In this document: positions 6,685 to 46,352 of the stretch, one piece after another
How the letters are laid out: each line of letters begins with the position of its first letter
How positions within the stretch are numbered: position 1 is the stretch's first letter
Assembly: GCA_965249595.1 (NCBI GenBank)
Contig: OZ252242.1
Span: 1,718,158-1,782,157, forward strand
DNA: 64,000 nucleotides
Reading direction: 5' to 3'
From: Chloroflexota bacterium
GTDB lineage: Bacteria; Chloroflexota; UBA11872; VXNJ01
Position numbers and translations under genes: made by a program
The notes under the pieces: generated by a model
Told to the model about the DNA's origin: nothing
The model's database searches: none
The model's input: the letters and a program-made list of their open reading frames with translations, nothing else

Positions 6685-7698
6685 ATGGGACGTCCATACG
6701 CCTTACTGCGAACAGGTTTTCCTTACGTCAAAACAATCGGCATGAGGCGAATCACCAGCTATCCCATGCAAGTGGTGGTCACTGATGACGACCGGTTGTT
6801 TGTGCTGTGCCGCGGTGAAGGAACAGTCAACATCCGCAGAACCAACCAAGACGACATAGATCTCGGTTCCATCGGCGGTATCGGCACCGGCGATGGCCAA
6901 TTTATTTGGGCGGCTTCATTGGCGATGGACGGTGACGAGAAGTTGTACGTCTCCGACGAAGCCCTCAATCGCATTTCGGTCTTTAACGTCGATGGCGAAT
7001 TCCTGGGTAAATGGGGCGAACCCGGCGACGGCGATGGCCAACTGGACCGGCCGTCAGGGATCGCATTTGACTCCGACGAGAACCTTTACGTTGCCGACAC
7101 GCTAAATCACCGCATTCAGAAATTCACCAAGGACGGCGTTTTCCTGAAGAATTGGGGCGAGTTTGGGGAGAACGAGGGTCAATTCAACATGCCCTGGGGC
7201 ATTTGCGTGGATGAATTGGGCGAAGTGTACGTCTCCGATTGGCGCAATGACCGCATTCAAAAATTCACCGCCGATGGTGAGTTTGTAATGTCGATAGGTG
7301 GATCGGGCAACGGCAAGGGCGAATTCAACCGGCCGACGGGCGTTGCCGTGGACGGTGACGGTGACATCTACGTGTCCGATTGGGGCAACGACCGCGTCCA
7401 GCAATTTGCTGCCGATGGTCGGTACCTGGAATCCTTCAGAGGCGACGCTTCGTTTTCCAAATCAGCGACCGAATACTTGATGGCGAATCCCAAAACGATG
7501 CGGTTGCGGGAGATGACTTCACTCGAACCGCAAAAACGGTTCCGCCATCCCACTTCCGTAACCGTTGACGGCCAGGGTCGGATGTTTGTCACCGATTTCG
7601 GTTCTTTCCGCATCCAGATGTATCAAAAACAAGCAATTGCTTTGACGTCTGATCAGATCTCGCCCGAGCAACGGGCGCCGACTCTTTATCTCGCATAG
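6685..7698 (+). CDS. NHL-repeat beta-propeller protein
   Basis: Six repeats of the form LYV(S/A)D..N.RIQ.F..DG.F...(W/G)G..G.G.G.F..P.G(I/V)A.D. Confidence 0.8.
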   Translation: MGRPYALLRTGFPYVKTIGMRRITSYPMQVVVTDDDRLFVLCRGEGTVNIRRTNQDDIDLGSIGGIGTGDGQFIWAASLAMDGDEKLYVSDEALNRISVFNVDGEFLGKWGEPGDGDGQLDRPSGIAFDSDENLYVADTLNHRIQKFTKDGVFLKNWGEFGENEGQFNMPWGICVDELGEVYVSDWRNDRIQKFTADGEFVMSIGGSGNGKGEFNRPTGVAVDGDGDIYVSDWGNDRVQQFAADGRYLESFRGDASFSKSATEYLMANPKTMRLREMTSLEPQKRFRHPTSVTVDGQGRMFVTDFGSFRIQMYQKQAIALTSDQISPEQRAPTLYLA

Positions 7699-9857: not shown

Positions 9858-11222
9858 TCACATTGATCGAAGTGCATCCTGGGCGGCCGCGATCGTCTTT
9901 TCGATGTCCGCGTCGGTGTGAGTGGAAGCTAGATGCCACCGACCGTTGGATGAAATGCGGATACCGCGATCGAGCATCCCTACACGAAATTTCTGGTACT
10001 TGTCTTCGTCGCAGTAGCGAACGTGCTCACGATAGTCGCTAATTTCCGCGCGGTCTGTAAACGCCGTTGCGAAGACCGAACCGAGTCCATTTACTCTCAG
10101 ATCACTCTCGGATTTCTCGGCGACGTTCCGGAGGCCGGCGATCAGTTTCTCACCGCGCCTGTTCAGTTCGCCATAGAAGCGATCACTATCAGCCATGATG
10201 TGGCTGAGCGAAGCGTGCGCGGCTTCAACGGACGCAACGTTCGAGTTAAAACTTCCGCCATGGTTTACTTTTCCATCTCCCAGCACCTGCATCACGTCAG
10301 GACGGCCGAGCAGCATGGCGATCGGAAACCCACCAGCTAAGGATTTTGCATAAGTCGCAAGGTCCGGAACCACACCGGTCAGCTCCTGGGCGCCACCGAG
10401 TGCCACGCGGAAGCCGGTGATGACTTCATCAAATATCAGGAGGGCGCTATTTTTGTCACAAAGATCCTTGGCGGCCTCAAGATAGCCTTCGCGGGCCGCG
10501 ATGAAGTTCGTATTGATGAGTATTGGCTCCATGATGACACCGGAGATTTGGTCTGGATGTCGCCTGAAGGCACCTGCGAGCGAATCAATGTCGTTCCATT
10601 GGCAGAGGACGATGTTCTCCCTGCCGGCAGGATCCATACCCTCGGACTCGCCAAAAGGCACGGGTGCATCCGCCGGTCCCGCTTGATCTAGAGGCGGGTG
10701 AAAGCTGTAACTAACGGAATCAGTCCAGCCGTGATAATGACCCTCGAACTTGATGAACTTTGGCCGTCCGGTATATCCGCGTGCCAGGCGGATGACGAGT
10801 TGGTCGATTTCAGTTCCCGAGCTGGCGAAACGCACATTCCCTTTCAGCGGAACCGCGTTCCGAACCATTCGCGAGACCTCCAATTCCCGCTCGAACTGGC
10901 CGGTATAGACAAGACCGCTGCGGATCGCTTTGGCCACCGCATCGTTTAAGAAATCGGGGGCGTGACCAAAAAGATTAGGTCCCATACCCTGTACGTAATC
11001 GACGTATTCGTTGCCGTCTACATCCCACATGCGGCCGTGTTTGGCTTTAGCGAAGAAAAGCGGAACCGGGTGCTCGTTTTGCCGAAGCTGACTGGAGATA
11101 CCGCCAGCGATTAGGCCTTGGGCGTCTCGGAACAATTGCCGGGAACGAGCGTATCGGTCTAGCTTCATGGAATCGCCTGGCCCCTCTTTCCGATTGACGC
11201 TCCATTTGGATGGTATCCGCAC
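9858..11222 (-). CDS. Class-III (PLP) aminotransferase, glutamate-1-semialdehyde aminomutase-like; likely start at ATG 11168
   Basis: FDEVITGFRVALGGAQ...TYAKSLAGGFPIAMLLG with the PLP-lysine region typical of class III. Confidence 0.8.
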   Translation of the reverse strand: MRIPSKWSVNRKEGPGDSMKLDRYARSRQLFRDAQGLIAGGISSQLRQNEHPVPLFFAKAKHGRMWDVDGNEYVDYVQGMGPNLFGHAPDFLNDAVAKAIRSGLVYTGQFERELEVSRMVRNAVPLKGNVRFASSGTEIDQLVIRLARGYTGRPKFIKFEGHYHGWTDSVSYSFHPPLDQAGPADAPVPFGESEGMDPAGRENIVLCQWNDIDSLAGAFRRHPDQISGVIMEPILINTNFIAAREGYLEAAKDLCDKNSALLIFDEVITGFRVALGGAQELTGVVPDLATYAKSLAGGFPIAMLLGRPDVMQVLGDGKVNHGGSFNSNVASVEAAHASLSHIMADSDRFYGELNRRGEKLIAGLRNVAEKSESDLRVNGLGSVFATAFTDRAEISDYREHVRYCDEDKYQKFRVGMLDRGIRISSNGRWHLASTHTDADIEKTIAAAQDALRSM

Positions 11223-11560: not shown

Positions 11561-13090
11561 CTACGGCGCGGGGTTGTATTTGGCGTCCGGCTCAAACGGG
11601 TAAAGGGGCCGACGACGACGACGATAAGTAAATGTGGATAAGTCGGCAGTCGTAACGCCGGGCGTACCGACCAAGATGATGCGTGAAGCTATCGGCTCAT
11701 AGGCGGGCCGGGGAGAGACAACGCCTTTGGCGACCACCACCCGATATCGTTCCGGCCAAACACCAACCGAATACATCTGCTGCCGCGAGGTGTTGCCATC
11801 CCGATTGCTCGTGAGGACCAGCGTGTGGTCATCGTCGGTCTCCAACACGGCGGTCGCACCGGCAGCAAAGAATCGATATCCGCCGTGCGTGGGACCGGTG
11901 TCCTCGTATTTGCCGTCCGCAAGCCTGACTACTCGGCCTTCCACGCGAATCGGTGTGCCGTGCATGTTGTCCGTCTTGGCGCCAACCAGAATATTCAGCG
12001 AACTGCCGATGCCAACTTCGACGCACTTTTGTACGGCTCCTGGGTCATAGAGGGTTTGCAGCAAACGGGGCATGCGCATCTGCTGCGCTTCGCGAAGAAT
12101 TACGGTTGAATCGGCCGATGACCCGCCGCCGATGTTGTCTCCGACATCCATCAGGACCACTGGCCCGTTCGTTGGATTGGCATCGTAGTGTTCAATCGCC
12201 AGTTCGAGCGCTTCTCTCGCACTTGGGACCTGCGAGTCCATTTCTGCTCGGCCCGCCCAAGCACGCTGCGCCATCCATTGGGACCGGCAGCGCGCCAAGC
12301 CGAGGTTCCCGTCGGCGACGACCAGGAATGACATGCCCATCTCTTGTACATCGGCGTAGGGATAACCCTCGGCAATCGAAGTGGAAAGAATCCCGGGCTC
12401 TGATTGGATTCGCAGCGAGTCAGCCGCAAGAGACTTCATTGGCTCTTCGCCGGTGAACTGTTTGACGATGTTGATTACCATCGGTGGCACTTCGAGCCAC
12501 TGCTTTGGAGCAATCTCGCCTTTTGCAGTACGAAAGATCAACTCGGCGCATTCGAATGCGCGCTGGCGGGCGTCCAAATGGGGATTGGTGCGGTAAATCG
12601 TTGCAACGGTCGAATGGTTGACCATTTCCCGGGAGAAATTGCCGTGCATATCCATTGCCATTCCGATCGGCACTGATGGGCCGACCAATTCCCGCACTCG
12701 CTTGGCTACCTCACCGTCGACATCCGGATATTCCTCAGAGACCGCGGCGCCATGGTTGGCCAGGAGTACACCATCCCAAGGCCCGTTATCCTGCAGAAGG
12801 CCGATCATTTCGCCGACGATCTGATCGAATGCTTCCTTGGTGATGATGCCGATGGGGCCGGCGCGGGCGTGGATCAGCGGAACAGCGTCAAATCCAATTT
12901 CATGGGACGCCTGTAGGAAACCTGCCACGCTGGCCTGGGAGCCTCCGAAGACTTCGATGATTTCGTCGCCGCGCAGTACCCCTTCTTCCTCGAATCTGGC
13001 GTAATCGGCGGGCACCGAAGAGAAGGTATTGGTCTCGTGCGAAATTCCGAGAACGGCGAATCTCATCTGGCGCCTAATCCGTGGCAGCAC
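11561..13090 (-). CDS. M81-family metallopeptidase / MlrC-like (microcystinase C family); likely start 13066
   Basis: N-terminal RFAVLGISHETNTFS is the MlrC N-domain signature. Confidence 0.75.
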   Translation of the reverse strand: MLPRIRRQMRFAVLGISHETNTFSSVPADYARFEEEGVLRGDEIIEVFGGSQASVAGFLQASHEIGFDAVPLIHARAGPIGIITKEAFDQIVGEMIGLLQDNGPWDGVLLANHGAAVSEEYPDVDGEVAKRVRELVGPSVPIGMAMDMHGNFSREMVNHSTVATIYRTNPHLDARQRAFECAELIFRTAKGEIAPKQWLEVPPMVINIVKQFTGEEPMKSLAADSLRIQSEPGILSTSIAEGYPYADVQEMGMSFLVVADGNLGLARCRSQWMAQRAWAGRAEMDSQVPSAREALELAIEHYDANPTNGPVVLMDVGDNIGGGSSADSTVILREAQQMRMPRLLQTLYDPGAVQKCVEVGIGSSLNILVGAKTDNMHGTPIRVEGRVVRLADGKYEDTGPTHGGYRFFAAGATAVLETDDDHTLVLTSNRDGNTSRQQMYSVGVWPERYRVVVAKGVVSPRPAYEPIASRIILVGTPGVTTADLSTFTYRRRRRPLYPFEPDAKYNPAP

Positions 13091-13249: not shown

Positions 13250-14845
13250 TCATTGTGCGTGGTTGAGCGTGGCGGTGTAGGTTCCGACATTGCCGGCGCT
13301 GTCATACGGGGTTCCAACTTCCATGTAGTACAACCCGGCCGGGAACTGATCCAATAGCAACTCCTGCGGTCCATTGCGGGCGTAGGCGAACAGATGCCCG
13401 TTGACATCCCAGACAAACCAGATGCCGACCCCGCTCGGGCCGTCGCGCACCGTCAGCTCGTAGAGCCCCTCATCTTCAATCTCGAATCGGAATACGTCGC
13501 GATCGTCTAGCATCTCGATGCCGCGGCGCGGACGCAGGGCGTTGTCGCCGCTGCCATAGAAGGGAGCCCAATCCCAGGGGTTCAGTCCCGGATCGTGGGG
13601 AGAAACATCCGAGTCGATATAGGCCTCGATCGATTGGCCGGGGCGCAGCGTGACCCCGCGATCGGTCCGATAGTCGTCGGCGTGGTCATCAAGCCTGATC
13701 GAGAGGGTGTAGTGTCCGGTCCCCCAACGGTCCTGATTCCCGGTTCCGACGGCAATCGCAAAACGTCCGTCGGCATCTGGCACAAAGAAGGCGCGGGCAA
13801 AGTTGTTGATGAATCCGCCGTAGTCGTGTTCCTTGAGAACTCTCTCTCCCTGCGCATTTACGATTTCCAGGATGCTCGGGTCGATCAGGTGGTCATCCAC
13901 GAACGCTACCCCGGCGCCGGGTCTGTGCTCTTCGACATCTTCAAATGCCATCCGCGAAACCAGCTCGATGATGTACGGCTGGCCGCCTTCGGCGCTAAAG
14001 ACGAACCAGTCCCGACCGCCGTCCTGGGCTGTCAGTTCGCCGTGCACGCGATTGGCAACACCCACCGAAATTGGGTCTATCGGCTCGACTCGGAAGATGC
14101 CCGAAAGGGCATAGAAGGGCGCCTGAGCGTCCCAGCGCAGACTTCGGCCCGAATCGAACTCGGCGCCGATTCCCGGCATCCCCACCCGAACATTAGTGCC
14201 GCCATCGACGTCGGCACCACCAAGCGGGAGAGGGGCGGAGGCACCATTTACTCGCGTCCCGGTGAAGATCTTGTCATCCTTTGAGAAGTCCAATTCCCGG
14301 CCGTCGCGCTTACGGCCGGGGTCGTAATGGTCCCAGCTGCTGTCGTAGAGGTCGCTGTTGTCATCGGCGACCTTGGGTCCCAGCAACCAATAGATGGGGA
14401 CTCCTGGACCATCGACGGCCGGATCGGTCGCGGTATTGGTCCGGGCGCTTACATCCTCGGTGCTGCCGAGCGCTCGAAAATGCCGCTTGTGTTCGAGCAG
14501 GTCGGAATGCCCGGCCGCAGCTTCGCCCATAACAAACGAGTTGTAATCGTCTATCTCATAAGCCATTGCATCGCGCGTTTCCGAAGTAACAAACAGCAGC
14601 CGAAATGAATCGCCGGGTCCGAGTTCCTCGGGAATGAGGCTCCAATTCCAGGGGACTAGGATCGCCTGATTAGGAGGCATCGGCGGCAAGCCACTACCAG
14701 GTTCCTGGGCATAAGCGGGACCCTTCGGCAGACTCAGCGCCAGCGCCAATCCGCAGAAAGCAGCTACAAAGGTGCGACCTCGGCGCCGCTTTGGCCGGGC
14801 CTGCGGACGAATTTTGAAAATTGACCCTGTTCCCTGCATCGCCAT
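13250..14845 (-). CDS. Secreted protein with two pre-peptidase C-terminal (PPC)-like domains
   Basis: N-terminal signal peptide (RRRGRTFVAAFCGLALALSLPKGPAYAQE). Two D(W/V)F.F..E..G.Y.(I/L).(L/V) PPC-like segments. Confidence 0.55.
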   Translation of the reverse strand: MAMQGTGSIFKIRPQARPKRRRGRTFVAAFCGLALALSLPKGPAYAQEPGSGLPPMPPNQAILVPWNWSLIPEELGPGDSFRLLFVTSETRDAMAYEIDDYNSFVMGEAAAGHSDLLEHKRHFRALGSTEDVSARTNTATDPAVDGPGVPIYWLLGPKVADDNSDLYDSSWDHYDPGRKRDGRELDFSKDDKIFTGTRVNGASAPLPLGGADVDGGTNVRVGMPGIGAEFDSGRSLRWDAQAPFYALSGIFRVEPIDPISVGVANRVHGELTAQDGGRDWFVFSAEGGQPYIIELVSRMAFEDVEEHRPGAGVAFVDDHLIDPSILEIVNAQGERVLKEHDYGGFINNFARAFFVPDADGRFAIAVGTGNQDRWGTGHYTLSIRLDDHADDYRTDRGVTLRPGQSIEAYIDSDVSPHDPGLNPWDWAPFYGSGDNALRPRRGIEMLDDRDVFRFEIEDEGLYELTVRDGPSGVGIWFVWDVNGHLFAYARNGPQELLLDQFPAGLYYMEVGTPYDSAGNVGTYTATLNHAQ

Positions 14846-15034
14846 ACCTCATCCCTGGCCTCAACATTTATTGATACGACATGCGGCCGCGAGCGGATTC
14901 GGAGGACTGAGCGATCAGCATTTGTACGCGGGCGCACTAGGATAGACCGTTTCTCGCTGCGGTTTTGAGGCCGGTTGATTGGTCGATAGACTGTCGGCAA
15001 CTTGACTGCGAACGTGAGTAATGAGGGGACCGCC

Positions 15035-16144
15035 ATGGCCGAACGCCGCACCGGATGGGTCTACCACGAGTCCTACCTGTGGCACGACACCGGCCGATGG
15101 CGCGGCGGTAGCCCTGAGTTGCGGGATTGGATCGAGGCCTGGGAGAGCTACGAGAACCCCGATACTAAGCGCCGCTTCAACAACCTACTCGAACTTTCGG
15201 GGTTTTCAGAACAACTGGTCCCGCTCAAACCGTGTCCAGCCACCCTTGAGCAGGTGCGGCGCTTCCACACTCCCGCCTACGTCGAAAGAATCCAAAAGCT
15301 CTCGGCCTCCGACGGTGGTGATGCCGGCCCGGGTGCGTCGTTCTCGCGCGGCGGCTTTGAGATCGCGTTGCTTTCCGCCGGTGGCACGATAGCGGCAGTA
15401 GACGCGGTGCTCGATGGCTCAGTTGACAACGCCTACGCGCTGGTTCGGCCCCCGGGCCATCATGCCGAGCGTGATCGCGGGATGGGGTTCTGCGTTTTTG
15501 GCAACGTCGCGATCGCAGCGATGCATGCGATTAAAGAGCGCGGAATCGGCAGGGTGGCAACCGTCGACTGGGATGTGCATCACGGCAACGGTACGCAACA
15601 GGCTTTCTACGACCGCAGCGATGTGCTCACGATTTCGATCCATCAGGACCGGTGCTTTCCGCCCGACAGCGGCCCGATGGAAGATCGTGGCGAAGGCGCG
15701 GGCGATGGTTACAACATCAACATTCCTTTGCCACCGGGCAGTGGTCATGGAGCCTACGTGGAGACCATTCGCCAGGTGGTGGTCCCGGCGTTGCAGGCAT
15801 TTGAGCCGGACCTGATCATCGTTCCATCCGGCTTCGACGCCAGCAACTTCGATCCGCTGGCGCGGATGATGGCCCACTCGGGAACCTATCGGGAAATGAC
15901 GCGATTGCTTCTGGAGGCAGCTGATGAGCTCTGCTCGGGTCGACTGGTGCTGAGTCATGAAGGCGGCTACAGCCCGATTTACGTACCGTTCTGCGGCCTC
16001 GCCGTCGTGGAGGAGCTGCGCGGCAAGAGGTCAATCGCCGGCGATCCGTATGAAGACAATCTCGCGGTGGCGGGTGGACAGGATCTGCAACCCCACCAGC
16101 AGGCAGTGCTTGGCGAGGCGAAGCTGCTGTTGGACCGACTCTAG
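15035..16144 (+). CDS. Histone deacetylase-family (acetoin utilisation AcuC / acetylpolyamine amidohydrolase-like) enzyme
   Basis: RPPGHHAE, DWDVHHGNGTQ and GFDASNFDPL zinc/active-site motifs. ATG 15035 preceded by GAGGGG SD. Confidence 0.85.
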   Translation: MAERRTGWVYHESYLWHDTGRWRGGSPELRDWIEAWESYENPDTKRRFNNLLELSGFSEQLVPLKPCPATLEQVRRFHTPAYVERIQKLSASDGGDAGPGASFSRGGFEIALLSAGGTIAAVDAVLDGSVDNAYALVRPPGHHAERDRGMGFCVFGNVAIAAMHAIKERGIGRVATVDWDVHHGNGTQQAFYDRSDVLTISIHQDRCFPPDSGPMEDRGEGAGDGYNINIPLPPGSGHGAYVETIRQVVVPALQAFEPDLIIVPSGFDASNFDPLARMMAHSGTYREMTRLLLEAADELCSGRLVLSHEGGYSPIYVPFCGLAVVEELRGKRSIAGDPYEDNLAVAGGQDLQPHQQAVLGEAKLLLDRL

Positions 16145-16264: not shown

Positions 16265-17266
16265 TCAAAATCCAAGCGCAACGACCCTGGCACATGCCTC
16301 TTCGACCATTCCGGGTATGGCTTGCTGGCGCCCGAGATCCGGGCGCTCCCACGTCCAGCCGATCGACATCAGGAGACGGATCAGCAGGAATAGCGGAATC
16401 AGGGAGAGTGCCTCGTCGCTGATCGGTCGTTCGGAACGGTATCCGGTGATCAGCGCATGAGTGAGCTCATGAAAAAACGGTTCATCCTCCACGTCATAGA
16501 GGGCCACGGCCAACTCAAATTGATGCCAGCCAAACCCGGCATCATCAAAGTCAATCACGTGTAGGGCGCCCGATTCGGCGATCACGATGTTTTTCGGGTG
16601 TAAATCGGCGTGAATCATTGAGAAGGTGTCGGGGCTTTGGCCGTAATCGCCAAGGATCTTCGCAATCCGATCGCGGGCGCGAATCATGATTTCTTTCTGC
16701 TCCGGCCGCGCCGACGGCACTTCCCAGAATCGACCCCAGTACGGGGCATCGCCAACGTACCCGGGCATATCGAAAGCATGACGGGTGAATCCGGGTGGCG
16801 GCTTCCACCCGCTGGACTGATTGTGTATCCGGCCGGCGATACGACCGATCTGTTCGAAGCTGGCCGCAATCCGCTTGAGATCGGATTCGTGCGCGATTTT
16901 TCGGCCCAGGATGGGGCCCTCGACCCAATCCACCAATCCGACGGCGCGCGAGGACTTCCCGTCGGGCGTTGGGATAGTGGCGTGACTGTCCCCGCTCAAG
17001 GTCCGCCGACCGACCGGGACCCGGATTCCGGCGTCGTTGAGCGCCTGCGTCCAGATGAGTTCTGATTCCAGTTCGGCCAGGGTGTGATAACCCGGTCGAT
17101 GGACCCGCAGCGAGTGGGCCCGCCCGGCGGGCTCGACCAGCCGAAAGGTACAGTTCTCAGCGTTGGAGATAAATTCAAGCCGGCCCGCTTTTATGCCCCA
17201 GTTGGGAAGAGCCCGCTCGGCGATTGCGCGCAGTTCTGCTTCGCTGAGATTGGTTGGTTGAGGCAA
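16265..17266 (-). CDS. APH-fold small-molecule kinase (homoserine kinase II / hydroxylysine-kinase-like phosphotransferase)
   Basis: Brenner motif IHADLHPKNIV and HVIDFDDAG. Confidence 0.75.
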   Translation of the reverse strand: MPQPTNLSEAELRAIAERALPNWGIKAGRLEFISNAENCTFRLVEPAGRAHSLRVHRPGYHTLAELESELIWTQALNDAGIRVPVGRRTLSGDSHATIPTPDGKSSRAVGLVDWVEGPILGRKIAHESDLKRIAASFEQIGRIAGRIHNQSSGWKPPPGFTRHAFDMPGYVGDAPYWGRFWEVPSARPEQKEIMIRARDRIAKILGDYGQSPDTFSMIHADLHPKNIVIAESGALHVIDFDDAGFGWHQFELAVALYDVEDEPFFHELTHALITGYRSERPISDEALSLIPLFLLIRLLMSIGWTWERPDLGRQQAIPGMVEEACARVVALGF

Positions 17267-17270
17267 ATAT

Positions 17271-18554
17271 CTAGGCCGGGATGCTCACGACCGACGCGAA
17301 TGCCTCCAGGAACAGATCGGCGTGTTCGCGCTTAAAAACCAGCGGCGGGCGAACTTTGAGCACGTTGCCGTGCTGCCCTGCCTTGCCCATCAGGAAACCG
17401 GCCTGCCGCAGCCTGTTCATGATCACTTCAGCCCCGTCTGGATCGGGCCCTCTACTGGCTCGATCCTTAACCCATTCAATGCCTATGAAAAGTCCGTGGC
17501 CCCGCACCTCGGCGATGGGTTCACAGCTTTGGCCGATCTCCTGCAGTTGATCTCGAAGGTACGATCCGACGGTCGCGACACTGTCGATCAGGTTTTCCCT
17601 TTCAATCACATCGATGACGGCTTGCCCCACGGCGGCTTGCAACGGGCTTGAAGCGAAGGTGTTGAAGTAACGCGTGCTGGAGCGAAAAGCGCCGACCAGC
17701 TCGGCCGATGCCACAACGCCGGCCAGCGGCAGGCCGTTGCCCATCGGTTTACCCAGCACGGCGATGTCGGGCACGAACCCGGAAGTCTCGTAACCCCACC
17801 AGCGGCCGGTGCGCGCGAAACCCGCCTGTACCTCGTCGCATATGAAAAGCCCGCCCGCGGCCCGCACCATCTGCGCCGCCCGGGCCATGAATCCCGGCGG
17901 AATATCGGGAAGCCCCTCGTTGGCCAGGATCGGGCAGAAAAGCACACCGGCAAATGGTATGCCGTCTGCGGCAAATCCATCGATCTTGTCCTGCAGCTGG
18001 CGAAGGTACGCCGCGGTGAGGGCGTCGCCATTTAGGCCCTCCTCGATCGGGCGATAGCTCTGCGGCATCGGGATCGAGCGGACCTCTTCAGAATCCTGGC
18101 CATGGACCCGGGTCAGCTTTCGCACCTCGGTCGAGTTGCCGTGATAGGCCGAGTCGGAGCAGATCAGACCACGCCCGCCGGTCGCGGCGCGGGCCATTTG
18201 GATGGCGACTTCATTGGCTTCCGTGCCGCTGCAAGTAAATACCGCAGTAGTGATCGAATCGGCGTGCAGGCCGGTGAGCCTCTCGGCATAGTCGAGGATC
18301 CCCTCGTGCAGATAGCGCGAGTGGACGTTTAGAGTCTCTGTCTGGCGCCGCATCGAATCGACGACATGGGAATTAGCGTGGCCAACGCAGGGCACATTGT
18401 TATATAGATCAAGGTAACGCTGGCCTTCAGCGTCGTAGAGCCAAACGCCCTCACCGCGTACGATGTGCACGGGGTCCTGGTAGAAGGTGGTAATTCCGGT
18501 GCCGAGCAACCGCTCGCGGCGGGCGATGAGTTCGGCAGTGGATAGCTTGCTCAT
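17271..18554 (-). CDS. Class-III aminotransferase-fold enzyme (aminotransferase or AGXT2L-type phospho-lyase)
   Basis: ICDEVQAGFARTGRWW, LGKPMGNGLPLAGV and SGTEANE class-III signatures. Ends 4 nt before the kinase start. Confidence 0.8.
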   Translation of the reverse strand: MSKLSTAELIARRERLLGTGITTFYQDPVHIVRGEGVWLYDAEGQRYLDLYNNVPCVGHANSHVVDSMRRQTETLNVHSRYLHEGILDYAERLTGLHADSITTAVFTCSGTEANEVAIQMARAATGGRGLICSDSAYHGNSTEVRKLTRVHGQDSEEVRSIPMPQSYRPIEEGLNGDALTAAYLRQLQDKIDGFAADGIPFAGVLFCPILANEGLPDIPPGFMARAAQMVRAAGGLFICDEVQAGFARTGRWWGYETSGFVPDIAVLGKPMGNGLPLAGVVASAELVGAFRSSTRYFNTFASSPLQAAVGQAVIDVIERENLIDSVATVGSYLRDQLQEIGQSCEPIAEVRGHGLFIGIEWVKDRASRGPDPDGAEVIMNRLRQAGFLMGKAGQHGNVLKVRPPLVFKREHADLFLEAFASVVSIPA

Positions 18555-18823
18555 GCTGAAATTGTCGGCGAAATGACGGTCTGCGGCAATCGCCGGCTTT
18601 TAGTGCACCGCGTCCTGGAAGCGTTGGTTTCGAAGTTTCATCATTGGGTTTTGGCAGATTCCACACCGGCCAAGCCCGTGCGCCCGAATGAAGGGCGCGG
18701 CAAGCTGACCAGCCGAGTCATCAATGCGGTGTCAACGCGCTGGCACGGCAATCTCTACACACCAGCTCATACTTTCGACGAGGACAGTTGCACGGTGATT
18801 GCATCGTGAAATGAATCCCCAGC

Positions 18824-19018
18824 ATGGCCAATCTTGTAGCCCACTGGCAATTGGCGTCCGGCGATGCCAAACGCTTGGGTAAGTTCCTATCTGACCCGTT
18901 CGTTTGGCCAATCGAAACGCTATCGCATCCCGTGCCCACACACTCAGCGTGGAAGACGACTCACGGCAGCACTTTAGACAAGAAATGTTTCGATAATTTT
19001 CATGCTGGGAAAAATTAG
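18824..19018 (+). pseudogene. Degenerate fragment of a VOC/glyoxalase-domain gene
   Basis: MANLVAHWQLASGDAKRLGKF parallels the N-terminus MANIVVHWELGSRHAEKLGNF of the downstream VOC gene and then diverges. Confidence 0.35.
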
Positions 19019-19054
19019 ACTTGGCGTTATTCGCGACGTGACAGGGGCATCATT

Positions 19055-19816
19055 GTGGCCAATATCGTAGTCCACTGGGAACTTGGTTCTCGGCACGCCG
19101 AAAAGTTGGGAAATTTCTACAAAAGCCTCTTTGGCTGGCGGGTAGAAAAGCAATCGTCGATGGACTATCGGGTCGTTTACACCGGCAACAAGCTGGGAAT
19201 TGACGGCGGCATCGTTCAGATTGACGGAGCAACGCCGCCGTATCTCACGTTCTACGTGATGGTCAATGACCTGCAGGCAACCCTGGATATGGCAGAAATT
19301 CAAGGCGCAAAAGTCGCATTTCCGCCCACTCCAATTGCGAATGTGGGAACGTTTGCCCAGATCAACGATCCGGAAGGTTTTCTAGTCGGGATCATTGAAC
19401 CGCCGCCTGATTGGGACGATCAAGCCGCCGGCCGCGAGCAAGAAGAAGACACCGGAAATCCAGTCCTTCACTGGGAGATAAATTCGGCGAACGCGGCGGA
19501 TCTGCAAGGTTTCTATACAACGCTTTTTGATTGGCGAATTGGCACCGACCTCCCGAACGATTACCCCATGGTGCTCACCGGTGGCGAAGGGGGAATTGGC
19601 GGTGGAATCTGTCAAATTGAGGACGATGGGCCCGCCTCCCTAACTCTTTATGTCGAGGTGGACGATGTCCAGGCCACTCTTGACAAGGCCCAAGGCCTCG
19701 GCGCCAAAGGCGTCGGGGAATTGATGCACGTCCCCGGCATTGGCACCTTCTCCCATATCAGCGATCCCGACGGGCACGTCCTCGGCGTAATGCGGGATGA
19801 ATCGGCCGAAGGCTAG
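19055..19816 (+). CDS. Tandem two-domain VOC (glyoxalase/bleomycin-resistance/dioxygenase) family protein
   Basis: Two internally homologous ~120-aa halves (VHWE..S...L..FY..LF(G/D)WR ... GGI.QI.D...L.YV.V.D(L/V)QATLD.A...GAK). Confidence 0.7.
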   Translation: MANIVVHWELGSRHAEKLGNFYKSLFGWRVEKQSSMDYRVVYTGNKLGIDGGIVQIDGATPPYLTFYVMVNDLQATLDMAEIQGAKVAFPPTPIANVGTFAQINDPEGFLVGIIEPPPDWDDQAAGREQEEDTGNPVLHWEINSANAADLQGFYTTLFDWRIGTDLPNDYPMVLTGGEGGIGGGICQIEDDGPASLTLYVEVDDVQATLDKAQGLGAKGVGELMHVPGIGTFSHISDPDGHVLGVMRDESAEG

Positions 19817-24316: not shown

Positions 24317-26056
24317 ATGCCCCGGATCGGGGTCGGGCCAGATACGGTCCCAAAATCTCGCGCGAAGGCCATGCAACTAAATGCAATTAACACCTTCTCC
24401 GATTGCTTGTCAATAATTGTTCGGGCGTGTCACGAAACAGGCGCCATTCTTACGAAACATCGGATGAGAAATTCGGCGTCGGAAGAACATCACAGGAAAT
24501 TCAATGACGCAGTTGGGGCGATTACAAAGCACCACGAACTGCATCGAATCGCCGGTGCGCACGTAGTCGACCACCGCCGGCTGACTACCGACCAATTGCG
24601 TGAGGGGCTACTGAAGGTAAGGCCGCAATACCTCCACCAGGAAACCGTTTGTTCGAATTTCGAACAAGCGTTGTTTAAAGAAGAAAGTACCCAGCTACGA
24701 GTGCTTTCGCGGTTGATCCTCGTCGATGTGCTGTTAAATCAATTCGGATTCGAATTGCCGTTTGATGAGACCGAGGAAATGGTCATTGCATTTGAGCAAA
24801 CGGTCGTGGACCGATCCAATGAGATTGAGCTTCAAGATCTGGGGTGCGCCAGCAACACGTCGACACGATTCAAAAACCTAAAACTATACGAGTTCGTGTT
24901 GGAAGTGGCATGGCAAAACAACGACGATAAGTCGCCCGATGAAGTCAATTTGTTAAGAATGCTCCGCGAACGGTTAGGTATTTCGGAATCTGACAATCGC
25001 CTGATGGAAGCGAAGCTTGGTAAATATCCAAAGCTGGACAACGGGCTCCACGTGCGAGACGAGATCGATGAAGCGCGTAAGTCCCTGCAGGGACTTGGTT
25101 TGCTGTTTGCAATTCGCCGAGAAGACGGTGCCGACGTAGATCTGGTCCCCGCAGAGGTGGCCGAACTGATCAGAAATGTGGTTGGCACCCAAATGCGGGA
25201 TGAAGCCTACCGCATGATGATTCGTGAGCGGCCGGTTCGAAAAAAGGCGCACTTGACCAGCGTATTGGAAAAGAACGGCGTTGAGTACGGCAGATATGAC
25301 ACTTTGGAGACGCTGACAGACCTAGTCGTCAGCTATGTTCCACCGACCAACGCCATTAGCAGCAATTCACCACGGTACGGGCTGGCCAATAAAGAACTTG
25401 CGGCGTGGTGCCGAAATCTCGGCGATTCCAGCTCTGGGACTACCGACGAGATGGTGGACCGAATAATTCGCCATTTTGATCGGCGACGACCGGTTGTTGA
25501 ACACCTCGATGACGAAAGGGCAACGTGGTACGAATACTTCGAAGAGCTAGCAACCCGATATTACGATTTGCTCCGGTCTCAGGATGTCATTGCCAAAGAC
25601 TTGGAAATTGAGTCAAAGTTTGAAGAAGCAACCAACTACCTTTTTTCGGAAAAGCTGAAGCACACGCCGCTCAAGCAGCCCGGTTCAAACCACCCGGACG
25701 GGCTGCTTAGCCTGGGTTCCTACTACCTAATGTGGGACAACAAATCGAAAGAATCACCCGTTAGTCTTCGCGACCACGTAAAGCAATTCGACGGTTATAT
25801 GGAGGCAGCTGAGAAATCAGTCCCAATTTTCTTGGTTATCGGCCCCGCGTTTTCCGACGAGTCGGAGATTGAAGCAATTCGGTACCGGGCCGAGCACTTT
25901 GATCGCGCGATTACATTGATTACGGCCGCCGAACTTAGAGATTTGGCCGAGGAGTGGGCGAGCCCTGAGAACAAGCGTCGCGAAGAGCCGTTTCCTCTTG
26001 GGCTTTTGGGTGTCAACGGTCGATATTCGCGGAGCCAGTTGGGGAAAATTTCATAA
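24317..26056 (+). CDS. Hypothetical 579-aa protein: SAP/HeH-like DNA-binding helices plus C-terminal PD-(D/E)xK-like nuclease motif
   Basis: AT-richer codon usage than neighbours. HeH/SAP-like segments SPDEVNLLRMLRERLGISESDNRLMEAKL and KELAAWCRNLGDSSSGTTDEMVDRIIRHF. C-terminal FEEATNYLFSE...HPDGLLSLGSYYLMWDNKSK has E..PD..(13 residues)..D-N-K spacing. Alternative ATG at 24371. Confidence 0.6.
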   Translation: MPRIGVGPDTVPKSRAKAMQLNAINTFSDCLSIIVRACHETGAILTKHRMRNSASEEHHRKFNDAVGAITKHHELHRIAGAHVVDHRRLTTDQLREGLLKVRPQYLHQETVCSNFEQALFKEESTQLRVLSRLILVDVLLNQFGFELPFDETEEMVIAFEQTVVDRSNEIELQDLGCASNTSTRFKNLKLYEFVLEVAWQNNDDKSPDEVNLLRMLRERLGISESDNRLMEAKLGKYPKLDNGLHVRDEIDEARKSLQGLGLLFAIRREDGADVDLVPAEVAELIRNVVGTQMRDEAYRMMIRERPVRKKAHLTSVLEKNGVEYGRYDTLETLTDLVVSYVPPTNAISSNSPRYGLANKELAAWCRNLGDSSSGTTDEMVDRIIRHFDRRRPVVEHLDDERATWYEYFEELATRYYDLLRSQDVIAKDLEIESKFEEATNYLFSEKLKHTPLKQPGSNHPDGLLSLGSYYLMWDNKSKESPVSLRDHVKQFDGYMEAAEKSVPIFLVIGPAFSDESEIEAIRYRAEHFDRAITLITAAELRDLAEEWASPENKRREEPFPLGLLGVNGRYSRSQLGKIS

Positions 26057-31099: not shown

Positions 31100-32600
31100 G
31101 TTGTAAGGGGGGGACTCTCTACCATTTGTCAAGCCGCTGCGGCATCACTCCGGAGCAGTTCTGGCTGATAAAGGGTCTGGTTACGCAGCATAGCGCAGAC
31201 CACCGCCAACAAACGGTCAGCTACCGATCGCAACGCCCTTGCATGCCGATGGCCTCGAAGGCGTAATGCGTCGTATTTGCGTCGGCTGACCGGATCATGC
31301 TGAACCGCCACCCGGGCCCAGTGGTACATGGCATTGGCGAGTCGACGATGGACGGCATGGCGTCGGACAACGATCATGCTCTTGCCCGATCGCTTGGTTA
31401 TCGGCGCAACTCCGCATAATGAGCGCAGGGCGCGATAGTCTCTCCGCATAAGAGGATCATGCGCCTCGGTGAGCAGTGTGGCGAGGACCGTCCTTCCGAC
31501 TCCGGGAAGAGATGAGAGGATGGCCACGTCGCGCTGCCCGCTCTCACCCAGTGCATCGTTGGCGATGGCATCGGTTAAGCGGTCGATCTGGGTGTTGACC
31601 TCGAGCAGTTGACGCTGGATGAGCTTTAGACGTTCGGCGACCAGGGTGATCGTCGCGACGGCAGCCTCGGTTGTGCCCGGAGACACCTTTATCGCTTCCT
31701 GGCGCAGCATCGAGAGCACGCCTGTCGCATCAATGCGACGGATGCGATGGCGTTTTAGCAACTGGGTTACCCGGCCTCGACTCAATCGCCGCCCCCTCTC
31801 CGGTGTGGGAGCCATCTGCCACAGATCCAGGATCCATGGCTCGGTGACGTTGTTGCTGATCTCCAGGACCTGCGGATAGTAGCGCCAGAGTTGTTGTCGC
31901 ACCCGGTTGCTAAGGCGGGTGCGCTCCTTGGTGAGCTCCTGAAGCCAAACGTGAGAACTCTCTTAGCTCCACGGTCAAGGGATCTGGCGATGCCAGCTGC
32001 CGCAGCACCTGCGGATCGGTGCGCAGGGCATCGGCCAGGACCCTGGCATCGCGGCGGTCGTCCTTGGCGCCGGCTGGGAAGAAGCGATCACGGAAGCGAT
32101 CGAGTTGCTTGGGGTTGATGGCATGCACTTTAAACCCGCGATCGAGCAGGCTCTCGACCACCGGTCCATGCGGCACCTCAATGGCGATGGCGATATCTTC
32201 GGGGTCGGTTCCGGTGCGGGACAGGATCCAGGCGGCCATGGCCGCCAATCCGGATCCACGATGCGGGAAATTACGCTGACCATGTTCGTTGCCGTCAGCG
32301 TCGATGATGCAGACCTGGTGCTCGGCGATGGCCCTTCTCGATCCGGCGTACCAGGAAGTGTGTTCTTTCACGGTCCTTCCCCATGTGTGGTGCGCGATGG
32401 TATTGATCGCATTGAAGGTCCGCCACGACACCTGCCAATCCCTGTACCGGCGTTCTAAGACGCAAACTCTCCACGGGGCATCTGCCGCGGCCAGCTGCAC
32501 CGGGGCACGGGTCCCCCCCACGGTGCTCAAAAGACACAAGGGGCGATTGGTTACTCCCGGCCGCTGACCTTGACGTCATCCAGGCTGAGCAGAGCATCGC
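31100..32600 (-). mobile_element. IS110-family insertion sequence (boundaries approximate)
   Basis: Contains the IS110 transposase coding region, N-domain and C-domain in collinear order; IS110 elements lack terminal inverted repeats, so ends cannot be fixed by eye. Confidence 0.65.
31129..32539 (-). pseudogene. IS110-family transposase, split by a frameshift between 31913 and 31962
   Basis: ORF 31910-32539 is the DEDD N-domain (VCIIDADGNEHG..., IAIAIEVPHGP...AINPKQLDRFRDRF). ORF 31129-31902 is the C-domain (LQELTKERTRLSNRVRQQLWRYYPQVLE..., LPGVGRTVLATLL..., GVAPITKRSGKS). End coordinates differ by 1 mod 3. Confidence 0.7.
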
Positions 32601-46300: not shown

Positions 46301-46352
46301 AAATCGGCCACATTCCCGGGGTGGCCGGCATTCGAACGTGGTCAGTTGGCAA
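37396..46352 (-). pseudogene. Giant cell-surface S8 subtilase / PPC x4 / P-domain / ~18 FN3 / LGFP-like protein, broken by in-frame TAG (43440-42) and a frameshift (42570-42618)
   Basis: Signal/TM anchor, four PPC-like domains, catalytic triad D (VVDNGLDHSH), H (HGTGVAGII), S (GTSASTPMVSG), and a proprotein-convertase P-domain. ORFs 43440-46352 and 42567-43373 are in-frame, separated by TAG plus 22 sense codons (..GTPTINSVAATDTALSVEWTP). The 1699-aa ORF frame is open upstream to 42619 with FN3 sequence (..ISYDVQLQAANAAGGGGWS). The C-terminus has (L/W)G(F/Y)P...Q.(F/Y)Q.G repeats. Confidence 0.65.
37900..43400 (-). repeat. Tandem array of ~18 fibronectin type-III coding repeats (~285 nt period)
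   Basis: Recurrent SYDLRHK.S.DPD..SW......W..G.LEY...GL.NGT.YD.Q.RA.N..G.G.WS....GTPRTVPG.P.I. Confidence 0.7.

What the first reader, a model, noticed from the sequence alone, without database searches (positions are those of the whole stretch)
16265..18554. APH-fold kinase plus class-III aminotransferase-fold operon resembling a kinase/phospho-lyase catabolic module
The aminotransferase-fold gene ends 4 nt before an APH-family small-molecule kinase. In animals and some bacteria, APH-like kinases (hydroxylysine kinase, ethanolamine kinase) pair with class-III aminotransferase-fold phospho-lyases (AGXT2L1/2) to degrade amino-alcohols through O-phospho intermediates. This tight pair fits that logic. 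It sits next to an HDAC-like amidohydrolase, which could supply the amine substrate.
Basis: partly seen in the sequence, partly recalled or inferred. Interest (0 to 1): 0.5.

Follow-up and report, generated by a model that had tools for sequence, protein, structure and literature searches.

The report
Amino-alcohol kinase plus phospho-lyase gene pair
Two tightly coupled genes in a Chloroflexota genome most likely break down a small amino alcohol, first phosphorylating it and then splitting off phosphate and ammonia to leave an aldehyde; this is a widespread, already described kind of pathway whose exact substrate here is unknown.

Summary
A 427-aa class-III aminotransferase-fold gene (17271-18554, minus strand) stops 4 nt before a 333-aa APH-family kinase gene (16265-17266, minus strand).

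The core interpretation holds.
- **Lyase:** its best solved relatives are the two proven phosphoethanolamine phospho-lyases, A1RDF1 (2.4e-100) and human ETNPPL (6.3e-83). True transaminases score 1e-51 or worse. It groups with the lyases in 291 of 300 bootstraps. Both carboxylate-binding arginines of GabT are replaced (N140, K400), while the PLP-binding residues are kept.
- **Kinase:** its best solved relative is the Mycobacterium smegmatis aminopropanol kinase 6EF6 (1e-43). It is not homoserine kinase, and it is not the PRK06148/hydroxylysine-kinase-type domain.
- **Pairing:** the lyase-then-kinase order recurs in 31 of 34 related genome loci across five phyla, usually with a gap of -23 to +13 nt. 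Fused proteins also exist.

The HDAC-like neighbour is convergent and conserved only in close Chloroflexota relatives, so it is not part of the module.

The substrate is unresolved. Ethanolamine or 1-aminopropan-2-ol is most likely. The window's subclade differs from the characterised lyases at some conserved positions that may lie near the active site.

Verdict: an ordinary new member of a known kind.

The parts
17271..18554 (-). Class-III aminotransferase-fold, PLP-dependent enzyme (427 aa), predicted amino-alcohol-O-phosphate phospho-lyase of the AGXT2L/ETNPPL/A1RDF1 type. Schiff-base Lys is K269. PLP residues are G110, T111, Y137, H138, D240, Q243 and T299. N140 and K400 replace the two carboxylate-binding Arg of GabT.
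   Evidence: PRK06148 C-terminal region, 407 bits; 5g4i 2.4e-100; 6tor 6.3e-83; next hit 1e-51; clade monophyletic in 291/300.
17267..17270 (-). 4-nt spacer (ATAT) between the lyase stop codon TAG and the kinase start codon TTG. This is consistent with co-transcription and translational coupling.
   Evidence: The same 4-nt spacer and TTG occur in L001, L007, L008, L037 and L038. Gaps of -23 to +13 nt occur in 28 loci.
16265..17266 (-). APH-family small-molecule kinase (333 aa, TTG start) of the aminopropanol-kinase subfamily, predicted amino-alcohol O-kinase. Catalytic loop is H219-x-D221-x4-N226. Mg-binding motif is D239-F-D241-D242. Subfamily motifs are LRVHRPGYH (53-61) and WGRFW (177-181).
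   Evidence: 6ef6 1.1e-43; 6ef6 is aminopropanol kinase.
18555..19054 (-). 500-nt upstream intergenic region that presumably holds the promoter of the pair. No sigma-70-like promoter and no riboswitch was found. It also carries a 64-codon remnant of the neighbouring VOC gene on the other strand.

Best explanation
The two genes form a self-contained catabolic module for a vicinal (1,2-) amino alcohol. The kinase uses ATP to phosphorylate the hydroxyl group. The PLP enzyme then forms an external aldimine with the amino group, eliminates phosphate (1,2-elimination) and releases ammonia and the corresponding aldehyde. A general aldehyde dehydrogenase encoded elsewhere would oxidise that aldehyde. 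The most likely substrates are ethanolamine (giving acetaldehyde) or 1-aminopropan-2-ol (giving propionaldehyde).

Shown here: family membership of both proteins, retention of catalytic residues, loss of the transaminase carboxylate-binding arginines, and conserved, tightly spaced gene order with occasional fusion.

Inferred: the chemistry, from characterised homologues.

Not resolved: the identity of the substrate.
For: Lyase:
- The top PDB relatives are the two experimentally verified phosphoethanolamine phospho-lyases: 5g4i/A1RDF1 at 340 bits and 6tor/ETNPPL at 282 bits. Every other class-III enzyme scores 180 bits or less.
- The best NCBIfam match is the C-terminal region of the kinase-lyase fusion models PRK06148/PRK06149.
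- The clade containing the window protein, A1RDF1 and ETNPPL is monophyletic in 291 of 300 bootstraps against GabT, an omega-transaminase, the RMM AT-fold enzyme and a GSA-aminomutase-like outgroup.
- Clade motifs are kept: YNNV, HSRYL, GTEAN, YHGN, DEVQ, GKPMGNG, FNTF, NVLKxRPP.
- GabT R141 and R398 are replaced by N140 and K400, while PLP-binding residues are conserved.

Kinase:
- The best PDB relative is 6ef6 at 1.1e-43. A paper in the library identifies 6ef6 as aminopropanol kinase (PMC7314540).
- The catalytic motifs are intact.

Coupling:
- The lyase-then-kinase order recurs in 31 of 34 loci from Chloroflexota, Gamma- and Alphaproteobacteria, Actinomycetota and Myxococcota. The gap is -23 to +13 nt in 28 of them.
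- P0368 is a single protein fusing this kinase type to this lyase type.
- A1RDF1 itself sits beside a kinase of the same subfamily, together with a permease, an SDR and an aldehyde dehydrogenase.
Against: - No enzyme of the window's own subclade (clade I) has been characterised.
- Clade I differs from the characterised lyases at conserved positions that may lie near the active site. C56 is invariant in 121/121 close homologues where A1RDF1, ETNPPL and clade II have His. L275 replaces His. A301-S302-S303 replaces Gly-Gly-Asn.
- No aldehyde dehydrogenase, transporter or regulator is linked to the pair in the window. Neighbours in distant loci are heterogeneous.
- The partner of the characterised aminopropanol kinase in M. 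smegmatis is an AT-fold enzyme from a different lineage, 25-26% identical to the window protein. The kinase subfamily therefore does not fix the lyase type or the substrate.
- The kinase tree is poorly resolved, with clade I recovered in 109 of 300 bootstraps.
Confidence: 0.8

Rival explanations
1. The module is specific for 5-hydroxy-L-lysine, as in the animal HYKK plus PHYKPL pair. It could, for example, use hydroxylysine released from host collagen by a sponge-associated bacterium.
For: The lyase belongs to the same clade as the vertebrate AGXT2L enzymes. The closest relatives come from MAGs whose record titles or bin names match sponge-symbiont sets as I recall them (Chloroflexi bin125, Gammaproteobacteria bin55, COS bins, Candidatus Poriferisodalis, Poribacteria). 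The window also encodes many peptidases and a 1699-aa fibronectin-III repeat protein.
Against: The kinase is not of the PRK06148/HYKK-type subfamily (42 bits against 285 bits). No lysine or aminoadipate-semialdehyde catabolic genes are linked. No carboxylate-binding Arg is evident at the two canonical positions.
Confidence: 0.08
2. The pair acts on a different, still unknown phosphorylated amine, or the PLP enzyme performs different chemistry on the phospho-intermediate. This would follow from the window's subclade having a remodelled active site.
For: Clade I is well separated (299/300 bootstraps). It has invariant C56 and conserved L275 and A301-S302-S303 where all characterised members have His, His and Gly-Gly-Asn. 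Flanks in distant loci include amine oxidases, FAD oxidoreductases and solute symporters rather than one fixed pathway. In Rhizobiaceae and Paenarthrobacter, related pairs sit beside homoprotocatechuate and phenylacetaldehyde genes, which suggests aromatic amino alcohols such as octopamine for those clades.
Against: All PLP-binding and clade-signature residues are otherwise kept, including K400. The obligate pairing with an amino-alcohol-type kinase is retained. It is not shown that positions 56, 275 and 301-303 contact the substrate.
Confidence: 0.1
3. The AT-fold protein is a genuine aminotransferase, and the APH protein is an unrelated antibiotic or protein kinase that merely happens to lie next to it.
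For: Public annotations call these proteins 'aspartate aminotransferase family protein', '4-aminobutyrate aminotransferase-like' and 'phosphotransferase' or 'Ser/Thr kinase RdoA'.
Against: There is a score gap of 340/282 bits against 180 bits or less to true transaminases. Both carboxylate-binding arginines are lost. The pair is conserved across phyla with overlapping or near-abutting genes. Fused proteins exist. The kinase scores far below the cut-offs for SrkA, homoserine kinase and thiamine kinase.
Confidence: 0.02

Closest known systems
A1RDF1 (AAur_pTC20101), the phosphoethanolamine phospho-lyase of Paenarthrobacter aurescens TC1, PDB 5G4I/5G4J, together with its neighbouring APH-family kinase AAur_pTC20099
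   Same: It has the same lyase clade (2.4e-100; 39.8% identity) and the same signature motifs, including Lys in place of the GabT R398 arginine. Its neighbouring kinase is of the same aminopropanol-kinase subfamily.
   Different: In P. aurescens the kinase is divergently transcribed. The locus also holds a permease, an SDR, a TetR regulator and an aldehyde dehydrogenase, next to aromatic-catabolism genes. The window has only the two genes. A1RDF1 has His, His and Gly-Gly-Asn where the window protein has C56, L275 and A301-S302-S303.
Vertebrate ETNPPL (AGXT2L1, PDB 6TOR) and PHYKPL (AGXT2L2) with hydroxylysine kinase HYKK (AGPHD1). Veiga-da-Cunha et al. 2012, J Biol Chem 287:7246, is cited from my own knowledge because the paper was not held in the library.
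   Same: The lyase family is the same (6.3e-83; 36.5% identity). The logic is the same: phosphorylate the hydroxyl, then eliminate phosphate and ammonia with PLP.
   Different: The window kinase is not of the PRK06148 N-terminal type to which HYKK is reported to be related (42 bits against 285 bits for a genuine member). In animals the genes are unlinked. PHYKPL and HYKK sequences could not be compared directly here.
(S)-1-amino-2-propanol kinase of Mycobacterium smegmatis (PDB 6EF6) and the RMM/aminoacetone-utilisation microcompartment locus. Mallette and Kimber 2018, J Biol Chem 293:19909. Its identity with 6EF6 is confirmed through PMC7314540; the rest is from my own knowledge.
   Same: It is the closest solved kinase (1.1e-43; 30-34% identity). 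The kinase is genomically associated with an AT-fold candidate phospho-lyase. As I recall, that paper already reported that this kinase family is widespread and is commonly linked to a candidate phospho-lyase.
   Different: The RMM AT-fold enzyme belongs to a different class-III lineage that is putrescine-aminotransferase-like. It is 25-26% identical to the window protein (24.9% in the multiple alignment; 26% by BLASTP) and has Gln at the GabT R398 position. The RMM locus also has BMC shell genes, an aldehyde dehydrogenase, an SDR, a permease and GntR. None of these accompany the window pair.
PRK06148/PRK06149 bi- or tri-functional kinase-lyase fusion proteins of Proteobacteria, and unfused versions such as the E. 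coli plasmid locus L044
   Same: The window lyase matches the C-terminal region of these models best (407 and 352 bits). The partnership of a kinase with a lyase is the same.
   Different: These proteins use a different APH kinase subfamily. The L044 kinase is 20-22% identical to the window kinase and scores 285 bits on PRK06148. The gene order is kinase first, then lyase.

Membership tests
AGXT2L/ETNPPL/A1RDF1-type phospho-lyases (class-III aminotransferase fold) | Fold-type I, class-III PLP enzyme with the Schiff-base Lys and PLP-binding residues intact | tested here: met
   Aminotran_3 at 1.7e-73. K269, D240, Q243, G110-T111, Y137-H138 and T299 align with GabT K268, D239, Q242, G111-S112, Y138-H139 and T297.
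AGXT2L/ETNPPL/A1RDF1-type phospho-lyases (class-III aminotransferase fold) | Groups with the experimentally proven lyases rather than with transaminases, racemases or decarboxylases of class III | tested here: met
   5g4i scores 340 bits and 6tor 282 bits, against 180 bits or less for all others. The clade is monophyletic in 291/300 NJ bootstraps with four outgroup lineages.
AGXT2L/ETNPPL/A1RDF1-type phospho-lyases (class-III aminotransferase fold) | Absence of the carboxylate-binding arginines used by class-III transaminases (GabT R141 and R398). The roles of these residues are from my own knowledge of GabT and OAT structures. | tested here: met
   N140 and K400 in the window protein. Lys at the R398 position in all 22 clade members examined.
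AGXT2L/ETNPPL/A1RDF1-type phospho-lyases (class-III aminotransferase fold) | Residues shared by all characterised members at window positions 56 (His), 275 (His) and 301-303 (Gly-Gly-Asn/Ser) | tested here: inconclusive
   The window protein and its subclade have C56 (121/121), L275 (106/121) and A-S-S. It is not known whether these residues are required for lyase activity or only tune specificity.
AGXT2L/ETNPPL/A1RDF1-type phospho-lyases (class-III aminotransferase fold) | Catalyses release of phosphate, ammonia and an aldehyde from an O-phospho amino alcohol, with no transamination | not testable with these tools
   This needs an enzyme assay.
Aminopropanol-kinase (6EF6) subfamily of APH-fold kinases | APH fold with an intact catalytic loop (HxDxxxxN) and metal-binding DFD motif | tested here: met
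   APH at 2e-23. H219-A-D221-L-H-P-K-N226 and I-D239-F-D241-D242 are present.
Aminopropanol-kinase (6EF6) subfamily of APH-fold kinases | Closest characterised relative is M. smegmatis aminopropanol kinase, sharing subfamily motifs (LRxHRPGYH, WGRFW) | tested here: met
   6ef6 scores 1.1e-43; the next PDB hit, amicoumacin kinase, scores 3e-16. The motifs are aligned. 6ef6 is identified as aminopropanol kinase.
Aminopropanol-kinase (6EF6) subfamily of APH-fold kinases | Phosphorylates (S)-1-amino-2-propanol preferentially | not testable with these tools
   Identity to 6EF6 is only 30-34%, so substrate preference cannot be transferred.
Hydroxylysine-kinase / PRK06148 N-terminal-type kinases | Strong match to the N-terminal kinase region of PRK06148/PRK06149 | tested here: not met
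   The window kinase scores 42 and 32 bits. The genuine member L044 scores 285 and 194 bits. The two are 22% identical by BLASTP. HYKK itself was not available for comparison.
Homoserine kinase type II (ThrB_alt) | Reaches the NCBIfam cut-off for TIGR00938 or PRK05231 | tested here: not met
   29 bits against cut-offs of 256 and 271.
RMM/aminoacetone-utilisation bacterial microcompartment locus | BMC shell genes, an aldehyde dehydrogenase and an SDR in the same gene cluster as the kinase and the AT-fold enzyme | tested here: not met
   The pair is bounded by a convergent HDAC-like gene 120 nt downstream and a 500-nt intergenic region upstream. None of the Pfam-scanned ORFs of 200 aa or more in the window is a BMC, Aldedh or SDR protein. 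Shell proteins can be shorter than 200 aa, and small ORFs elsewhere in the window were not scanned. Compare L045.

The most novel reading that the evidence does not exclude
The window pair represents an uncharacterised, well-separated subclade of kinase/phospho-lyase modules. Clade I has invariant Cys56 and Leu275/Ala-Ser-Ser in place of the His/His/Gly-Gly-Asn found in every characterised phospho-lyase. It seems frequent in MAGs that appear to be sponge-associated (Chloroflexota, Gammaproteobacteria, Acidimicrobiia). Its physiological substrate might not be ethanolamine or aminopropanol but another, possibly host-derived, amino alcohol such as 5-hydroxylysine from collagen.
Probability: 0.2. 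Interest if true: 0.45.

Novelty: new member of a known kind. Interest (0 to 1): 0.25.

Why it matters
Public records label these genes only as 'aspartate aminotransferase family protein' and 'phosphotransferase'. Recognising the pair as an amino-alcohol kinase/phospho-lyase module gives a B12-independent route for using ethanolamine-like compounds as carbon and nitrogen sources in uncultured Chloroflexota, and it corrects the annotation for thousands of homologues. The biochemical logic has been known since the 1970s in Pseudomonas and Erwinia, and at gene level since 2012-2018. The value here is therefore annotation and ecology rather than new mechanism. The one open point of wider interest is the substrate specificity of the uncharacterised clade I.

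Tried and rejected
1. **Key papers not held.** I tried to read Veiga-da-Cunha 2012 and Mallette and Kimber 2018, but neither is in the library. Their content is cited from memory, apart from the identity of 6EF6, which one search confirms.
2. **RMM enzyme as orthologue: rejected.** I expected the M. smegmatis RMM AT-fold enzyme to be the orthologue of the window lyase. It is only 26% identical by BLASTP and is putrescine-aminotransferase-like.
3. **L033 fusion: rejected.** Its 765-aa 'AT-kinase' ORF looked like a fusion. The AT C-terminus continues in another frame, so this is a frameshift, either a sequencing error or a pseudogene. Apparently genuine fusions were found instead in P0368 and P0280.
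4. **HDAC-like gene as part of the module: rejected.** It is convergent, and it is conserved next to the pair only in close relatives.
5. **Substrate clues from neighbours: none found.** In 20 distant loci (123 ORFs), no family recurs in more than 6 ORFs.
6. **Regulatory elements: none found.** There is no riboswitch or other Rfam match of note (one weak CcsR1 hit, E = 0.085, well below its gathering score). There is no sigma-70-like promoter, and terminator-like sites occur at the chance level.
7. **Kinase-lyase co-phylogeny: weak.** The point-estimate trees look alike, but the kinase clades have low bootstrap support. I do not use this as evidence.
8. **Exact-sequence look-up:** the window lyase itself was not found on any contig in the collection.
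Full report
**Observation**

The window carries two adjacent minus-strand ORFs at exactly the stated coordinates. One is a 427-aa ORF (17271..18554, ATG start). The other is a 333-aa ORF (16265..17266, TTG start). The sequence reads ...GCC TAG ATAT TTG CCT..., so the first gene's stop codon is separated from the second gene's start codon by 4 nt. Pfam assigns Aminotran_3 (1.7e-73) and APH (2e-23).

The TTG is the only start codon that gives an N-terminus matching homologues. The same TTG and 4-nt spacer are found in the closest Chloroflexota relatives.

The HDAC-like gene is real (15002..16144, plus strand; Hist_deacetyl 8.6e-85). It is convergent with the pair and ends 120 nt from the kinase stop codon.

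**The PLP enzyme**

Against all PDB sequences, the two best hits are the two structurally characterised phosphoethanolamine phospho-lyases. These are A1RDF1 of Paenarthrobacter aurescens (5g4i; 2.4e-100; 340 bits) and human ETNPPL (6tor; 6.3e-83; 282 bits). The next hits are aminotransferase-like proteins, dialkylglycine decarboxylase, racemases and GABA or ornithine transaminases, all at 180 bits or less.

In NCBIfam the best matches are the C-terminal regions of PRK06148 and PRK06149, the roughly 1000-residue kinase-lyase fusion models (407 and 352 bits). The PbfA ammonia-lyase model is far below its cut-off.

I built a neighbour-joining tree with E. coli GabT, an omega-transaminase paralogue, the mycobacterial RMM AT-fold enzyme and the window's own GSA-aminomutase-like protein as outgroups. 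The window protein, its relatives, A1RDF1 and ETNPPL form one clade in 291 of 300 bootstraps.

The clade motifs are all present (YNNV, H(S/T)RYL, G(T/S)EAN, YHGN, DEVQ, GKPMGNG, FNTF, NxxKxRPP). Mapped on E. coli GabT (fetched):
- The PLP-binding residues are conserved: G110/T111, Y137/H138, D240, Q243, K269, T299.
- The two arginines are replaced by N140 and K400. To my knowledge these bind the substrate and 2-oxoacid carboxylates in GabT (R141, R398; the latter equivalent to OAT R413).
- The gating Glu (E211) is replaced by N212.

This is what one expects of an enzyme that neither binds a dicarboxylic co-substrate nor transaminates.

**The kinase**

The best PDB relative is 6ef6 (1.1e-43), far ahead of amicoumacin kinase (3e-16). 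A paper in the library identifies 6ef6 as aminopropanol kinase (PMC7314540). From my own knowledge, this is the (S)-1-amino-2-propanol kinase of the M. smegmatis RMM microcompartment (Mallette and Kimber 2018).

The catalytic loop (H219-x-D221-x4-N226) and the metal-binding IDFDD motif are intact. The subfamily motifs LRVHRPGYH and WGRFW are also present.

Matches to homoserine kinase, SrkA and thiamine kinase models are far below their cut-offs.

The match to the N-terminal kinase region of PRK06148 is only 42 bits. A genuine member of that type, the kinase of an E. coli plasmid locus (L044), scores 285 bits and is 22% identical to the window kinase by BLASTP. So at least two APH subfamilies partner AGXT2L-type lyases, and the window uses the aminopropanol-kinase type.

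An exhaustive HMMER search finds 466 50%-identity cluster representatives of this kinase type at E of 1e-30 or better.

**Coupling of the two genes**

A genome scan returned 35 loci, of which 34 hold an orthologue (46-84% identity). They come from Chloroflexota/Dehalococcoidia, Gamma- and Alphaproteobacteria, Actinomycetota and Myxococcota.
- In 31 loci a kinase homologue lies immediately downstream on the same strand.
- In 28 of those, the predicted gap is -23 to +13 nt.
- One further locus ends at a contig edge, and two Woeseiaceae loci lack the kinase.
- Everything else around the pair varies.

Fused proteins exist:
- P0368 joins an aminopropanol-kinase-type domain to an AGXT2L-type lyase domain that is 37% identical to the window protein.
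- P0280 joins an RMM-type AT-fold domain to the same kinase type.
- P0324 joins the kinase to a short-chain dehydrogenase.

A1RDF1 itself lies beside a kinase of the same subfamily, with a permease, an SDR and an aldehyde dehydrogenase. Rhizobiaceae plasmids carry the pair in an operon with a second aminotransferase and a divergent permease plus aldehyde dehydrogenase, next to homoprotocatechuate genes.

**What it most likely does**

The kinase phosphorylates the hydroxyl of a 1,2-amino alcohol. The PLP enzyme eliminates phosphate and releases ammonia and an aldehyde. This is inferred from the characterised homologues and not shown here.

Ethanolamine or 1-aminopropan-2-ol are the most likely substrates, because those are the substrates of the characterised relatives on each side.

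**What remains open**

The window protein belongs to a well-supported subclade (clade I; 299/300 bootstraps) that contains no characterised enzyme. This subclade has:
- invariant C56 (121/121 close homologues) where A1RDF1, ETNPPL and clade II have His;
- L275 in place of His;
- A301-S302-S303 in place of Gly-Gly-Asn.

I could not determine whether these positions contact the substrate.

The mycobacterial aminopropanol kinase works with an AT-fold enzyme of a different lineage, 25-26% identical to the window protein and putrescine-aminotransferase-like. Kinase subfamily alone therefore does not predict the substrate.

A hydroxylysine-specific role cannot be excluded, but it lacks positive support.

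**The HDAC-like neighbour**

It is an HDAH/DmhA-type amidohydrolase (best PDB hits are dimethoate hydrolase, propanil hydrolase and HDAH). It is convergent with the pair. It is found next to the pair only in Chloroflexota relatives whose lyase is at least 77% identical (L001, L007, L008, L037). It is absent in the 74-76%-identical Dehalococcoidia loci and in all others. This is local synteny, not a conserved functional link.

**Source and novelty**

The nearest relatives are uncultured Chloroflexota/Dehalococcoidia MAGs. Several relatives carry names or bin labels that I associate with sponge symbionts.

The pairing logic was published in 2012 for the vertebrate enzymes. As I recall, it was extended in 2018 to the aminopropanol-kinase family, described as 'very commonly associated with a candidate phospho-lyase'. 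The finding is therefore a correct reading of an ordinary, widespread module: a new member of a known kind, with an unresolved substrate.

Noticed in passing
window 18824-19018 (+): A 64-codon ORF in the intergenic region upstream of the lyase gene. Its first 34 residues resemble the N-terminus of the adjacent VOC/glyoxalase-fold gene at 19055-19816 (MANLVAHWQL... against MANIVVHWEL...; local BLOSUM62 score 87). It is probably a remnant of a partial duplication.
   Followed up: partly
window 9858-11222 (-) and 11561-13090 (-): A second class-III aminotransferase-fold gene. Its best NCBIfam match is the guanitoxin transaminase GntE model, then glutamate-1-semialdehyde aminomutase models, all below their cut-offs. 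It lies next to an M81/MlrC-like metallopeptidase. It is unrelated to the flagged pair (19.6% identity).
   Followed up: partly
window 37396-42495 (-), 42567-43373 (-), 43440-46352 (-): A 1699-aa protein with at least 11 fibronectin type III repeats, followed by a smaller fn3 protein and a 970-aa S8 subtilase with PPC and P-domains. An NHL-repeat protein lies at 6685-7698. These are eukaryote-like repeat proteins of the sort reported in host-associated bacteria.
   Followed up: no
window 31129-32539 (-): An IS110-family transposase split into two ORFs: DEDD_Tnp_IS110 at 31910-32539 and Transposase_20 at 31129-31902. This suggests a frameshifted or two-part insertion sequence.
   Followed up: no
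window 13250-14845 (-) and 24317-26056 (+): Two large ORFs (531 and 579 aa) with no Pfam or NCBIfam match. The first has an N-terminal signal-peptide-like segment.
   Followed up: no
L038:6001-7771: In one Chloroflexota MAG the lyase gene has an internal deletion: residues 173-335 are missing and the ORF is 254 aa. The downstream kinase is intact and 71% identical to the window kinase. The module may be decaying there.
   Followed up: partly
L033:2279-4576: An apparent 765-aa lyase-kinase fusion in a long-read Proteobacteria MAG is a frameshift. The lyase C-terminus (...NLVKVRPPLVL...) continues in another reading frame.
   Followed up: yes
L041:1-17269, L042:1-17266, L043:1-19230: In Rhizobiaceae plasmids and on Paenarthrobacter pTC2 (the A1RDF1 locus), the kinase/lyase genes sit directly beside homoprotocatechuate meta-cleavage and phenylacetaldehyde dehydrogenase genes. 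This suggests that those clades degrade aromatic beta-hydroxy-amines such as octopamine. As I recall, the association with aromatic pathways in Rhizobia was already noted by Mallette and Kimber 2018.
   Followed up: partly
P0280, P0324 (metagenomic proteins): The aminopropanol-kinase-type domain also occurs fused to an RMM-type (putrescine-aminotransferase-like) AT-fold domain (P0280) and to a short-chain dehydrogenase (P0324). The same kinase type has therefore been recruited to at least two unrelated AT-fold lineages.
   Followed up: partly
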